A stretch of 25,976 bases of DNA from a virus, in UHGV virus genome UHGV-1612078; one strand, written 5' to 3'. Position 1 is the stretch's first letter. Every line of letters starts with the position of its first letter. Both the position numbers and the translations under genes were made by a program. The notes beneath the pieces were generated by a model. That model was not told the origin of the DNA. It did no database searches and was given only the letters and a program-made list of their open reading frames with translations. This document shows, piece after piece, positions 312 through 1,375 of this stretch.

Positions 312-425
312 AATTTGTGACAACTGTCACATTAATATCTACTTGACGCGATTATAGGGGTTGAACTGATCACTCTTCTCTTAATTTCGTGTGAAGACAT
401 CTTGATTGTTGGAGTAGGTATTAAT

Positions 426-599: not shown

Positions 600-950
600 A
601 TGAAAGGTAATGTTTATTTAGTAGTTCATGATTTAACATTCTATTTTAATCATAATGATACTGTTATTTCTGAACGTGTAATTAATTTGCTTTATCAGCA
701 TGCAGATTATGTTTATGTCGAAAACGAATATGGTCATTGGCAATTTCTCAAAAATCGTTCATTTGGTTTAGATGGTTACGAATATTTTGATCGTAAAGAC
801 CTTTTAGATACAATTCCGTTATCTACACAATATCAAAATCATAAGTCTTTACATAAATGCCGGCTAATTCGAAATGCTGAATCCGCGTATGAAGCAATTG
901 ATTTGTGGCGTAAACGCCGTGAATATATTGATTCTTTAAAAGAATATTAA
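600..950 (+). CDS. hypothetical protein (116 aa), first gene after the tRNA cluster
   Basis: Open frame with SD gagg about 8 nt upstream of ATG 600. No motif recognised. Confidence 0.6.
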   Translation: MKGNVYLVVHDLTFYFNHNDTVISERVINLLYQHADYVYVENEYGHWQFLKNRSFGLDGYEYFDRKDLLDTIPLSTQYQNHKSLHKCRLIRNAESAYEAIDLWRKRREYIDSLKEY

Positions 951-954
951 GAAA

Positions 955-1290
955 CCGGGTCGCTACCGGTAAGTCGTCGGACTGATGTTCCCTGGAGTAT
1001 AGTTTCCTCCCACAGTTTTACTGTGTTCTGGCTCTTTACTATCACAGCAGAAACGGCGCACCGAATTATCGATTCGAGGAAATATCTTTGCCGTAAGCCG
1101 AGTAGCGTTTTTGACGGAACGTTCGGATATGGTCGAGATATGGCCTTTTAAAAATATTGAGTAGCGTCAACTACTTAATAACCGGGTTCGAATCCCGGCG
1201 TTTCGTACAAACACTTGCCTTAGCAGGTGGAACCCCGACAAGGTTGCCGCAAGGCTTAGCCCCGACCGAAAGGTTGGGGCTTTTTAGTTT
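955..1290 (+). ncRNA. candidate structured noncoding RNA / tRNA-like element (GC-rich intergenic block)
   Basis: About 420 bp without a convincing ORF in a gene-dense genome. GC looks clearly higher than flanking sequence. Multiple hairpins (accgg-gtcgcta-ccggt; 10-bp stem tattgagtag/ctacttaata). Canonical T-arm ccggg-TTCGAAT-cccgg directly followed by cgtttcg, which can pair with cggaacg at 1113-1119 as an acceptor stem. Ends in a terminator hairpin. Confidence 0.3.
1259..1286 (+). terminator. rho-independent terminator
   Basis: Hairpin gccccgacc-gaaa-ggttggggc followed by a TTTTT run. Confidence 0.6.
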
Positions 1291-1375
1291 GAATCACTCG
1301 GATAACGCTGTTACGGATAGTAACAAAGTAATAAATAATTAATAACCAACCGATAAATTATTTCAAGGATTTTAA

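What the first reader, a model, noticed from the sequence alone, without database searches (positions are those of the whole stretch)
951..1375. GC-rich structured noncoding block with tRNA-like T-arm and acceptor pairing: candidate stable ncRNA
About 420 bp without a credible ORF (the track ORF 1157..1342 has no SD and unusual composition) in an otherwise tightly packed genome. GC content is visibly higher than its surroundings. It contains several perfect hairpins, a canonical T-arm (ccggg-TTCGAAT-cccgg) flanked by sequences that can form a 7-bp acceptor stem (1113-1119 with 1198-1204), a 10-bp extended stem in place of an anticodon arm, and ends in a rho-independent terminator. T4 is known to make two stable small RNAs of unknown function from its tRNA region, so this could be an analogous or novel tRNA-like RNA, or a degraded tRNA/host-derived fragment.
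Basis: partly seen in the sequence, partly recalled or inferred. Interest (0 to 1): 0.55.

Follow-up and report, generated by a model that had tools for sequence, protein, structure and literature searches.

The report
Phage T4 stable RNAs rnaD and rnaC

Summary
Window 951-1290 is orthologous to the distal end of the phage T4 tRNA operon. It holds rnaD (species 2 RNA, about 951-1062), rnaC (species 1 RNA, 1069-1207; 143 of 144 aligned bases identical to T4), two trailer hairpins and an intrinsic terminator (1258-1281 plus a U run). T4's RefSeq record annotates both RNAs, and papers from 2010 to 2025 still call their function unknown.

The proposed acceptor stem (really 1114-1120 with 1200-1206) shows no covariation.

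In 20-24 rnaC homologs from about ten genera of T4-like phages, a different fold covaries strongly:
- a 7-position acceptor-like stem made by the RNA's own ends (1070-1076 with 1199-1205), abutting the T-stem;
- a long irregular arm;
- a 10-bp arm;
- a 6-bp kissing interaction between the two arm loops (UUGACG with CGUCAA), kept through compensatory changes in three lineages.

In other genera rnaC sits 4-10 nt from flanking tRNAs, so it is probably cut out by the tRNA-processing machinery.

Verdict: already known element, function open, with a modest new structural lead.

The parts
951..1062 (+). rnaD homolog (T4 species 2 RNA). It has a 5' hairpin at 954-970 (5-bp stem, loop GUCGCUA) and a closing stem 973-979 with 1054-1061. 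The middle (about 990-1035) differs from T4 and contains the hairpin 1011-1025.
   Evidence: It aligns to T4 rnaD (NC_000866 71053-71171) with 101 of 127 columns identical. The 5' 45 nt or so and the 3' 30 nt or so are near-identical and the middle has diverged. RNAalifold on 6 variants keeps the hairpin and the closing stem; 9 of 35 pairs show compensatory change. nhmmer found homologs only in Tequatrovirus-type loci and one Gaprivervirus-derived contig.
1069..1207 (+). rnaC homolog (T4 species 1 RNA), 139 nt. The ends are taken from the T4 annotation.
   Evidence: 143 of 144 aligned bases are identical to T4 rnaC (NC_000866 70908-71046). The covariance model R1 scores 164.8 bits at 1068-1211 and finds no other significant match in the window.
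1070..1076 (+). 5' strand (CGAUUCG) of the acceptor-like closing stem of rnaC. It pairs with 1199-1205 (CGUUUCG) and has two central U.U mismatches.
   Evidence: The four outer pairs form in every sequence. The third pair switches between A-U (6 sequences) and G-C (14). In the TG1 lineage the two U.U positions become U-A and C-G. In Jiaodavirus the stem is CGGUAUG with CAUACCG, fully Watson-Crick.
1077..1146 (+). Long irregular arm of rnaC: five short helices separated by internal loops and a 3-nt bulge. The apical loop UUGACG is at 1111-1116.
   Evidence: RNAalifold and pair counts: helices 3 to 6 all show compensatory changes. The base helix AGG with CCU is replaced by CAC with GUG in Jiaodavirus.
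1111..1116 (+). Apical loop UUGACG. It is the exact reverse complement of the arm-2 loop CGUCAA (1165-1170), giving a proposed 6-bp kissing-loop pseudoknot.
   Evidence: All 21 distinct sequences that have letters at these positions can form all six pairs. Four pair sets are seen: UUGACG/CGUCAA, UUGAUG/CAUCAA (TG1 lineage), UUGGCG/CGCCAA (F48 / kv_tblp5 lineage) and UUGCAG/CUGCAA (Jiaodavirus). The pseudoknot was not part of the covariance model used to align A3.
1147..1154 (+). Single-stranded A-rich joiner (UUUAAAAA) between the long arm and arm 2.
   Evidence: The AAAAU core is invariant in the 20-sequence alignment. It is looser in Jiaodavirus.
1155..1180 (+). Arm 2 of rnaC: a 10-bp stem (1155-1164 with 1171-1180) and the loop CGUCAA (1165-1170).
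   Evidence: On A2, 6 of the 9 counted pairs have compensatory changes; on A3, 8 of 9.
1182..1198 (+). T-arm of rnaC: a 5-bp stem and the loop UUCGAAU. It is directly followed by the 3' strand of the acceptor-like stem (1199-1205), as in real tRNAs.
   Evidence: Two of the five stem pairs covary: CCGGG/CCCGG, CCUGG/CCAGG and CUUGG/CCAAG. The loop is not universal: it reads UGCAUGC, UGCAUUC or UGCAUCC in Kanagawavirus and Winklervirus.
1212..1255 (+). 3' trailer with two small hairpins: 1212-1229 (7 bp, loop CUUA) and 1246-1255 (GCC-GCAA-GGC).
   Evidence: Fold of 1206-1292 gives z = -3.6. 74 of 79 bases are identical to T4. The trailer is retained in Mosigvirus AV115, which has lost most of rnaC.
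1258..1286 (+). Intrinsic terminator of the tRNA / stable-RNA operon: a 10-bp stem with a GAAA loop, followed by UUUUU.
   Evidence: Terminator scan. The same hairpin is annotated as a terminator in phage D5505.
1287..1375 (+). AT-rich spacer (GC 0.28) with a Shine-Dalgarno sequence (AAGGA) ahead of the ORF at 1376-1939. It is not part of the RNAs.
   Evidence: Composition, sequence, ORF list.

Best explanation
The block is the distal end of a T2L/T4-type tRNA operon and encodes the two known T-even stable RNAs, rnaD (species 2) and rnaC (species 1). Behind them lie a short structured trailer and the operon's intrinsic terminator.

Shown here by comparison of phages: rnaC is a four-way-junction RNA.
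- Its own 5' and 3' ends form a 7-position acceptor-like stem. This stem stacks directly on a T-arm, giving the acceptor/T 'minihelix' of a tRNA.
- In place of the D and anticodon arms it has a long bent arm and a 10-bp arm.
- The terminal loops of those two arms are exactly complementary and covary, so they most likely pair as a 6-bp kissing complex.

Inferred: the minihelix acts as a processing handle. Because of it, rnaC is excised from the polycistronic tRNA transcript like a tRNA. RNase P would cut at its 5' side, and its 3' end would come from the RNase P cut of the next unit followed by exonuclease trimming. It then accumulates as a nuclease-resistant compact RNA.

Speculative: the mature RNA acts in trans, most plausibly by binding or titrating a protein that recognises tRNA-shaped RNA. 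It does not act as an amino-acid carrier, because it has no anticodon arm and, in this phage, no encoded CCA end.

rnaD is a 5' hairpin plus a long stem with a fast-evolving tip. It is restricted to Tequatrovirus and close relatives. Its 3' end is probably set by the cut that creates the rnaC 5' end.
For: Identity:
- T4 RefSeq annotates rnaD and rnaC immediately after tRNA-Arg.
- The window is 143/144 identical to T4 in rnaC, 101/127 in rnaD and 74/79 in the trailer.
- The layout tRNA-Met, Tyr, Asn, Arg plus extra ORFs plus 'RNA species I and II' is the one described for phage T2L (PMC2330249).

Expression:
- T4 RNAC and RNAD are real transcripts, classed as late RNAs; the late classification was checked by a Northern-blot assay for which the methods describe an RNAC probe (PMC9697503).
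- Their function is stated to be unknown in 2010, 2022 and 2025.

Fold:
- RNAalifold on 20 sequences gives 40 pairs, 24 of them with compensatory changes.
- Pair counts on the same alignment: 97.7% of cells paired, 0 of 500 shuffles reach the observed values, and versions with partners slid by 1-3 columns fall to 37-50% paired.
- With the kissing helix added, on 22 distinct sequences: 45 pairs, 34 with compensatory changes, and the kissing helix 100% paired with three pair types at each of its two central positions.

Processing context:
- In Karamvirus, Gelderlandvirus, Moonvirus, Winklervirus, Tegunavirus, Kanagawavirus, Jiaodavirus and the kv_tblp5 phage group, the rnaC model match lies 4-10 nt from a flanking tRNA, on one or both sides.
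- The Jiaodavirus and F48-type (Marfavirus) copies encode U-CCA right after the acceptor stem.
Against: - Nothing here shows processing, stability or any trans-acting function in this phage. Those points are carried over from T4 or inferred from layout.
- The RNase P dependence of species 1 RNA rests on my memory of 1970s-80s work (Abelson and McClain laboratories). I could not retrieve it.
- In most lineages the acceptor-like stem has two U.U mismatches, and its first pair is C-G.
- According to the T4 annotation, the RNA starts one base 5' of the stem and ends at ...GUA, not CCA.
- The canonical T-loop sequence is lost in Kanagawavirus and Winklervirus, so a full tRNA-like elbow is not required.
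- The kissing pairs could form between molecules rather than within one. Sequence data cannot tell these apart.
- rnaD alone does not fold better than shuffled sequence (z = -0.07), and its conserved stems never vary, so they give no covariation evidence.
Confidence: 0.8

Rival explanations
1. Positions 1114-1206 form a degenerate class-II or Sec-like tRNA (or tRNA pseudogene), with an acceptor stem 1114-1120 with 1200-1206, a D-like arm, an aberrant anticodon arm and a long variable arm.
For: The 7-bp pairing exists in this sequence, and 83.6% of cells across homologs can pair. Rfam tRNA-Sec aligns end to end over 1114-1206. The T-arm is canonical.
Against: - The helix has no compensatory change, and all 500 shuffles score at least as high.
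- Its 5' strand sits in the apical loop and apical helix of the long arm, and that helix covaries in every pair that varies.
- The tRNA-Sec score is 17 bits against a cut-off of 47, E = 1.3.
- ARAGORN calls nothing here or in 11 homologous loci.
- The model puts an extra base between the T-stem and the acceptor stem. The end-to-end stem has none there.
Confidence: 0.04
2. The region encodes small proteins: the ORFs at 1157-1342 and 1023-1151, which match the PHROG families 28391 and 24262.
For: Both ORFs hit PHROG families strongly, with E-values of 1e-29 to 1e-32. Many GenBank records annotate 'hypothetical protein' over rnaC.
Against: - Neither ORF has a Pfam hit.
- The 61-aa ORF starts with TTG and runs through the T-arm, the trailer and the terminator.
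- In other genera a tRNA gene begins 1-7 nt after the rnaC match, so that frame cannot continue.
- Substitutions follow base-pairing rules, with 34 of 45 pairs compensatory, and single-base indels occur between lineages.
- The PHROG families are best explained as translations of a conserved RNA gene that automatic gene callers picked up.
Confidence: 0.02
3. The conserved structures act only in cis, as processing, stability or termination signals for the tRNA operon. The released RNAs are inert by-products with no function of their own.
For: rnaC always lies inside or at the end of a tRNA cluster. The tRNA region is dispensable for T4 growth on laboratory hosts (PMC2330249). Mosigvirus AV115 has lost rnaC but kept the trailer and terminator.
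Against: A by-product would not need the 6-bp loop-loop complementarity, which is kept through three independent double changes. Nor would it need an invariant A-rich joiner conserved across about ten genera. In several genera rnaC sits between tRNAs rather than at the operon end, so it is not a terminator element.
Confidence: 0.12
4. The complementary loops pair between molecules, not within one. rnaC would then form head-to-tail dimers or rings, as the phi29 packaging RNA does with its two interlocking loops.
For: The long arm is about 21-27 bp (depending on lineage) plus internal loops, against 10 bp for arm 2, so an intramolecular kiss requires the long arm to bend back. T4 RNAC is classed as a late RNA.
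Against: There is no evidence of multimers. A 3-nt bulge at a conserved position and several internal loops in the long arm could provide the bend. T4 DNA packaging works in vitro without any RNA (established knowledge).
Confidence: 0.1

Closest known systems
Phage T4 rnaC (species 1 / band C RNA) and rnaD (species 2 / band D RNA)
   Same: Orthologous sequence, same order, same strand relative to the tRNA genes, and the same trailer and terminator. rnaC differs from T4 at one base.
   Different: The middle of rnaD is replaced by unrelated sequence. A 116-aa ORF (600-950, phrog_3355) separates tRNA-Arg from rnaD here, whereas in T4 rnaD starts two bases after tRNA-Arg. This matches the T2L-type layout.
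Transfer RNA
   Same: A 7-position acceptor stem runs directly into a 5-bp T-stem with a UUCGAAU loop. The element sits in tRNA operons with tRNA-like spacing. Some lineages encode a discriminator base plus CCA.
   Different: It has no D-arm and no anticodon arm with a 7-nt loop. It is about 140 nt long. Most lineages have U.U mismatches in the acceptor stem. It carries a loop-loop pseudoknot between two non-tRNA arms. tRNA finders do not detect it.
tRNA-like domain of tmRNA; tRNA-like modules such as mascRNA and bacterial YrlA (Y-RNA-like) RNAs
   Same: The principle is the same: an acceptor/T-arm mimic lets a non-tRNA be recognised by tRNA-processing enzymes.
   Different: There is no tag reading frame and no tmRNA pseudoknots. 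ARAGORN and Rfam tmRNA models do not match, and no Rfam Y-RNA or YrlA family matches. There is no G3.U70 alanine identity pair.
phi29 prohead RNA (pRNA)
   Same: A phage-encoded RNA of about 120-170 nt with two loops that complement each other and covary.
   Different: There is no sequence or fold homology. The pRNA loops pair between molecules on the portal, and nothing links rnaC to packaging. This is an analogy only, drawn from my own knowledge.

Membership tests
T4 rnaC (species 1 RNA) | Sequence homology to T4 rnaC over its full length | tested here: met
   143 of 144 aligned bases are identical. BLAST hits to records that annotate rnaC (T4, RB68, RB6, Kha5h) are at 98.6-99.3%.
T4 rnaC (species 1 RNA) | Position at the distal end of the tRNA cluster, after rnaD and before the operon terminator | tested here: met
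   The order is tRNA-Arg, (ORF), rnaD, rnaC, trailer, terminator.
T4 rnaC (species 1 RNA) | Accumulates as a discrete stable RNA of about 140 nt in infected cells | not testable with these tools
   For T4, PMC9697503 classes RNAC and RNAD as late RNAs and supports this with a Northern-blot assay using an RNAC probe. It has not been tested for this phage.
T4 rnaD (species 2 RNA) | Sequence homology to T4 rnaD | tested here: met
   101 of 127 columns are identical. The 5' and 3' thirds are near-identical and the middle third has diverged. nhmmer gives E = 1e-37.
tRNA | Cloverleaf with a D-arm and an anticodon arm carrying a 7-nt loop, recognised by tRNA models | tested here: not met
   ARAGORN finds none in 951-1375. 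Rfam RF00005 does not match at gathering score, and the best clan match is tRNA-Sec at 17 bits against 47. The same holds for the homologs.
tRNA | A 7-bp acceptor stem contiguous with a 5-bp T-stem and a 7-nt T-loop | tested here: met
   The stem 1070-1076 with 1199-1205 abuts the T-arm at 1182-1198. It covaries, but has two U.U mismatches here.
tRNA | 3' terminal CCA, encoded or added | tested here: inconclusive
   The window reads U-ACA-A after the stem. The Jiaodavirus and F48-type copies read U-CCA-A. Whether CCA is added cannot be tested here.
tmRNA | A tRNA-like domain plus a tag reading frame and pseudoknots | tested here: not met
   ARAGORN tmRNA search is negative. The only Rfam match is permuted tmRNA at 10 bits over the T-arm alone.
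Intrinsic (rho-independent) terminator | A GC-rich hairpin followed by a U run | tested here: met
   1258-1281 forms 10 pairs (7 of them G-C) with a GAAA loop, followed by TTTTT.

The most novel reading that the evidence does not exclude
rnaC is not a relic. It would define an uncatalogued family of structured RNAs, present in at least about 900 sequenced T4-like phage genomes. It would act late in infection as a decoy or adaptor for a host or phage factor that recognises tRNA shape, for example a tRNA-targeting defence nuclease or a tRNA-processing enzyme, and so contribute to host range.
Probability: 0.2. Interest if true: 0.7.

Novelty: already known. Interest (0 to 1): 0.3.

Why it matters
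The locus itself adds nothing new: it is the textbook pair of stable RNAs from the T4 tRNA region. The comparison does add three useful points.

- rnaC reaches well beyond T4. It was found in Tequatrovirus, Gaprivervirus, Karamvirus, Kanagawavirus, Winklervirus, Tegunavirus, Gelderlandvirus, Moonvirus, Jiaodavirus and Marfavirus-type phages. It is almost never annotated and matches no Rfam family at gathering score.
- It has a well-supported fold with a covarying kissing-loop interaction. This gives precise mutants with which to attack a 50-year-old question about its function.
- Gene callers and PHROGs carry spurious 'hypothetical proteins' translated from it.

A 2025 experimental-evolution study found one convergent SNP in the rnaD homolog when a T4-like phage adapted to a semi-permissive E. 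coli host (PMC12685909). This suggests that these RNAs can affect growth on particular hosts.

Tried and rejected
Ideas rejected:
- tRNA-Lys anticodon-loop mimic. I considered whether the CUUUUAA stretch at 1145-1151 copies the E. coli tRNA-Lys anticodon loop, as a decoy for the PrrC nuclease. The U run is not conserved (CCUU-NN-AAAAU across genera), and the register does not give a closed 7-nt loop.
- Kink-turn at the 3-nt bulge of the long arm. There are no tandem G.A pairs.
- A 9-nt internal repeat GAGUAGCGU in rnaC. It is not conserved outside the T4-type sequences.
- rnaD as a paralog of rnaC. The rnaC covariance model does not hit rnaD.

Searches that did not help:
- A loose IMG/VR pattern returned mostly chance matches. 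nhmmer kept about 10 real ones.
- Slopekvirus KP27 and Providencia PSTCR6 loci were fetched through their NudE homologs. KP27 has no annotated tRNA cluster in the stretch fetched, and the PSTCR6 locus was cut at the start of the record; neither gave an rnaC match.

Literature:
- Searches for 'species 1 RNA' with RNase P, or with bacteriophage T4, found nothing in the held library.
- Miller et al. 2003 is not held.
- The primary papers from the 1970s and 1980s on sequence and processing could therefore not be checked.

I repeated it correctly.

Full report
**What is in the window**

ARAGORN and Rfam find a run of tRNA genes at 1-581: a truncated tRNA, then Met, Tyr, Asn, His and Arg(UCU). A 116-aa ORF follows at 600-950. 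The finding region 951-1375 comes next, followed by a 187-aa ORF at 1376-1939.

Megablast places the window in Tequatrovirus. It is 100% identical to phages HP3, YUEEL01 and others over 940-1380, and 761 phage records match.

**Checking the observation**

These points hold:
- The region has no credible ORF. The two short ORFs (1023-1151 and 1157-1342) have no Pfam hit.
- GC is 0.485 for 951-1290 against 0.347 for the whole window. Only 0.3% of 340-nt windows reach that value.
- The T-arm is at 1182-1198 and the 10-bp stem at 1155-1164 with 1171-1180.
- The terminator is at 1258-1281, followed by TTTTT.
- The 945-1292 stretch folds 4.7 standard deviations better than shuffled sequence.

The proposed 7-bp acceptor pairing is present at 1114-1120 with 1200-1206, one to two bases off the coordinates given.

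**Identity**

The T4 RefSeq record annotates, right after tRNA-Arg, the misc_RNAs rnaD ('species 2 RNA', 71053-71171) and rnaC ('species 1 RNA', 70908-71046).

| Window part | Identity to T4 |
|---|---|
| 1068-1211 (rnaC) | 143 of 144 |
| 949-1067 (rnaD) | 101 of 127; ends near-identical, middle third diverged |
| 1212-1290 (trailer and terminator) | 74 of 79 |

So the block is the ortholog of the T4 rnaD-rnaC-terminator segment.

[quoted passage not shown] That layout has tRNA-Met, Tyr, Asn and Arg plus extra ORFs, and no segB.

The literature agrees that these RNAs are real. RNAC and RNAD were classed as late RNAs in T4, and that classification was checked by a Northern-blot assay (PMC9697503). 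It also agrees that their function is unknown (PMC3014915, PMC9697503, PMC12685909).

**Structure of rnaC**

No Rfam family matches at gathering score. The best tRNA-type match is tRNA-Sec at 17 bits, E = 1.3.

I collected homologs in three ways:
- BLAST against phage genomes.
- Two IMG/VR pattern scans, filtered with nhmmer.
- A covariance model built from 20 sequences.

The model also recovered a divergent Jiaodavirus copy that BLAST had missed (85 bits). That type occurs in 138 Klebsiella and Raoultella phage records.

The genera represented include Tequatrovirus, Gaprivervirus, Karamvirus, Kanagawavirus, Winklervirus, Tegunavirus, Gelderlandvirus, Moonvirus, Jiaodavirus and Marfavirus.

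RNAalifold predicts 40 pairs, of which 24 show compensatory changes. Pair counting gives 97.7% of cells paired. None of 500 shuffles reaches the observed values, and versions with partners slid by 1-3 columns fall to 37-50%.

The fold is a four-way junction with these parts:
1. A 7-position stem made by the RNA's own ends, 1070-1076 with 1199-1205. It has two central U.U mismatches. These become Watson-Crick pairs in the TG1 lineage and in Jiaodavirus. The third pair switches between A-U and G-C.
2. A long irregular arm, 1077-1146.
3. An A-rich joiner, 1147-1154.
4. The 10-bp arm, 1155-1180.
5. The T-arm, whose 3' strand runs directly into the closing stem, as in a tRNA.

Its 5' strand lies in the apical loop and apical helix of the long arm, and that helix covaries.

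**The kissing loops**

The apical loop of the long arm (UUGACG, 1111-1116) is the exact reverse complement of the arm-2 loop (CGUCAA, 1165-1170). The complementarity is kept in every sequence examined.

Three lineages carry matched double changes:
- UUGAUG with CAUCAA in TG1-type phages.
- UUGGCG with CGCCAA in F48 / kv_tblp5-type phages.
- UUGCAG with CUGCAA in Jiaodavirus.

These are seen. This pseudoknot was not in the covariance model, so the alignment could not have been fitted to it.

With the kissing helix included, 45 pairs are 96.4% paired and 34 show compensatory changes.

A 3-nt bulge at a conserved position below the apical helix, together with several internal loops, could let the long arm bend back to reach arm 2. 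Intermolecular pairing cannot be excluded.

I did not find this interaction described in the searchable literature. However, the original structural papers are not held in the library.

**Genomic setting and likely processing**

Outside Tequatrovirus, rnaC sits inside tRNA clusters. Typical positions are Trp-rnaC-Gly, rnaC-Trp, Met-rnaC and Pro-rnaC. The model match begins 4-6 nt after the upstream tRNA and ends 1-7 nt before the next one.

Neither ARAGORN nor Rfam ever calls it a tRNA. The F48-type and Jiaodavirus copies encode U-CCA after the stem; this window has U-ACA.

This layout and the minihelix fit excision by the tRNA-processing machinery. I recall that species 1 RNA depends on RNase P, but I could not verify it.

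The canonical T-loop is replaced in Kanagawavirus and Winklervirus. A complete tRNA elbow is therefore not essential.

**rnaD**

rnaD homologs were detected only in Tequatrovirus-type loci and one Gaprivervirus-derived contig. Six variants share three features:
- A 5' hairpin at 954-970, with one compensatory A-U to G-C change.
- An invariant closing stem, 973-979 with 1054-1061.
- A hypervariable but still paired tip.

On its own, rnaD does not fold better than shuffled sequence.

In this lineage an ORF lies between tRNA-Arg and rnaD. The 5' end of rnaD therefore cannot be set by tRNA-Arg 3' processing, as it could be in T4.

A 2025 study reports a convergent SNP in the rnaD homolog of a T4-like phage adapting to E. 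coli ECOR34.

**Function**

Function remains unknown. The best-supported statement has three levels:
- Shown: the identity of the RNAs and the fold.
- Inferred: excision of rnaC like a tRNA, through its minihelix.
- Speculative: a trans-acting role as a tRNA-shaped decoy or adaptor.

rnaC is unlikely to carry an amino acid. It has no anticodon arm, no known identity elements and no CCA end here.

**Verdict**

But this is that precedent, not something analogous or new, and the specific cloverleaf model is wrong.

- Novelty: already known.
- Interest: low to moderate, resting only on the new comparative fold and the breadth of the family.

Noticed in passing
window 1023-1151 and 1157-1342: The two short ORFs that overlap rnaD/rnaC match PHROG families phrog_24262 and phrog_28391 (E = 1e-29 to 1e-32). 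Many GenBank records annotate 'hypothetical protein' here. These families look like translations of a conserved RNA gene, that is, annotation artefacts.
   Followed up: partly
L144 (Mosigvirus AV115, OR352945.1) 853-1000: A 'tRNA-Asn' called by ARAGORN and by the record is a chimera. Its 3' part, from the T-loop GGTTCGAATCC onward, is identical to the last 26 nt of rnaC and is followed by the rnaC trailer and terminator. This suggests a deletion or recombination at the shared T-loop sequence that removed rnaD and most of rnaC.
   Followed up: partly
window 1258-1290 versus L002 (phage D5505) 1821-2400: All the closest relatives (HP3, YUEEL01, D5505 and others) carry an extra 474-nt ORF after the terminator, flanked by a second copy of the terminator. 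The window has a single terminator and lacks the ORF. The extra ORF starts MKSYTQFLNEA..., resembling the window's ORF at 1376-1939 (MKTYAEFLTEA...), so it may be a tandem paralog gained or lost by recombination between the terminator repeats.
   Followed up: partly
window 600-950: A 116-aa ORF (phrog_3355, unknown function) lies between tRNA-Arg and rnaD. T4 has nothing there. The layout matches the T2L-type tRNA region with its 'trna.1/trna.2' ORFs described in PMC2330249. Its stop codon directly abuts the start of rnaD homology.
   Followed up: partly
window 959-966 versus 1102-1107 and 1161-1166: The invariant rnaD hairpin loop (GUCGCUA, plus the C that follows it) contains CGCUAC, which is complementary to GUAGCG. 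GUAGCG occurs twice in rnaC, next to each kissing loop. An rnaD-rnaC contact is possible, but this is seen only in Tequatrovirus-type sequences and could be chance.
   Followed up: no
window 1187-1196: The rnaC T-arm carries GGTTCGAATCC, the conserved T-psi-C motif. This motif forms the 11-bp core of the recognition site of the T4 homing endonuclease SegB (PMC2330249). rnaC may therefore be a secondary SegB target in phages such as this one that lack segB.
   Followed up: no
window 312-425: A 114-nt gap between tRNA-Asn and tRNA-His has no tRNA or Rfam match. It was not examined.
   Followed up: no
L004 617-688 and L132 446-517 (Winklervirus): A weak tRNA lies 9 nt upstream of rnaC. Rfam scores it 36 bits, ARAGORN does not call it, and one record annotates it as tRNA-Phe. 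It may be an atypical or decaying tRNA.
   Followed up: no
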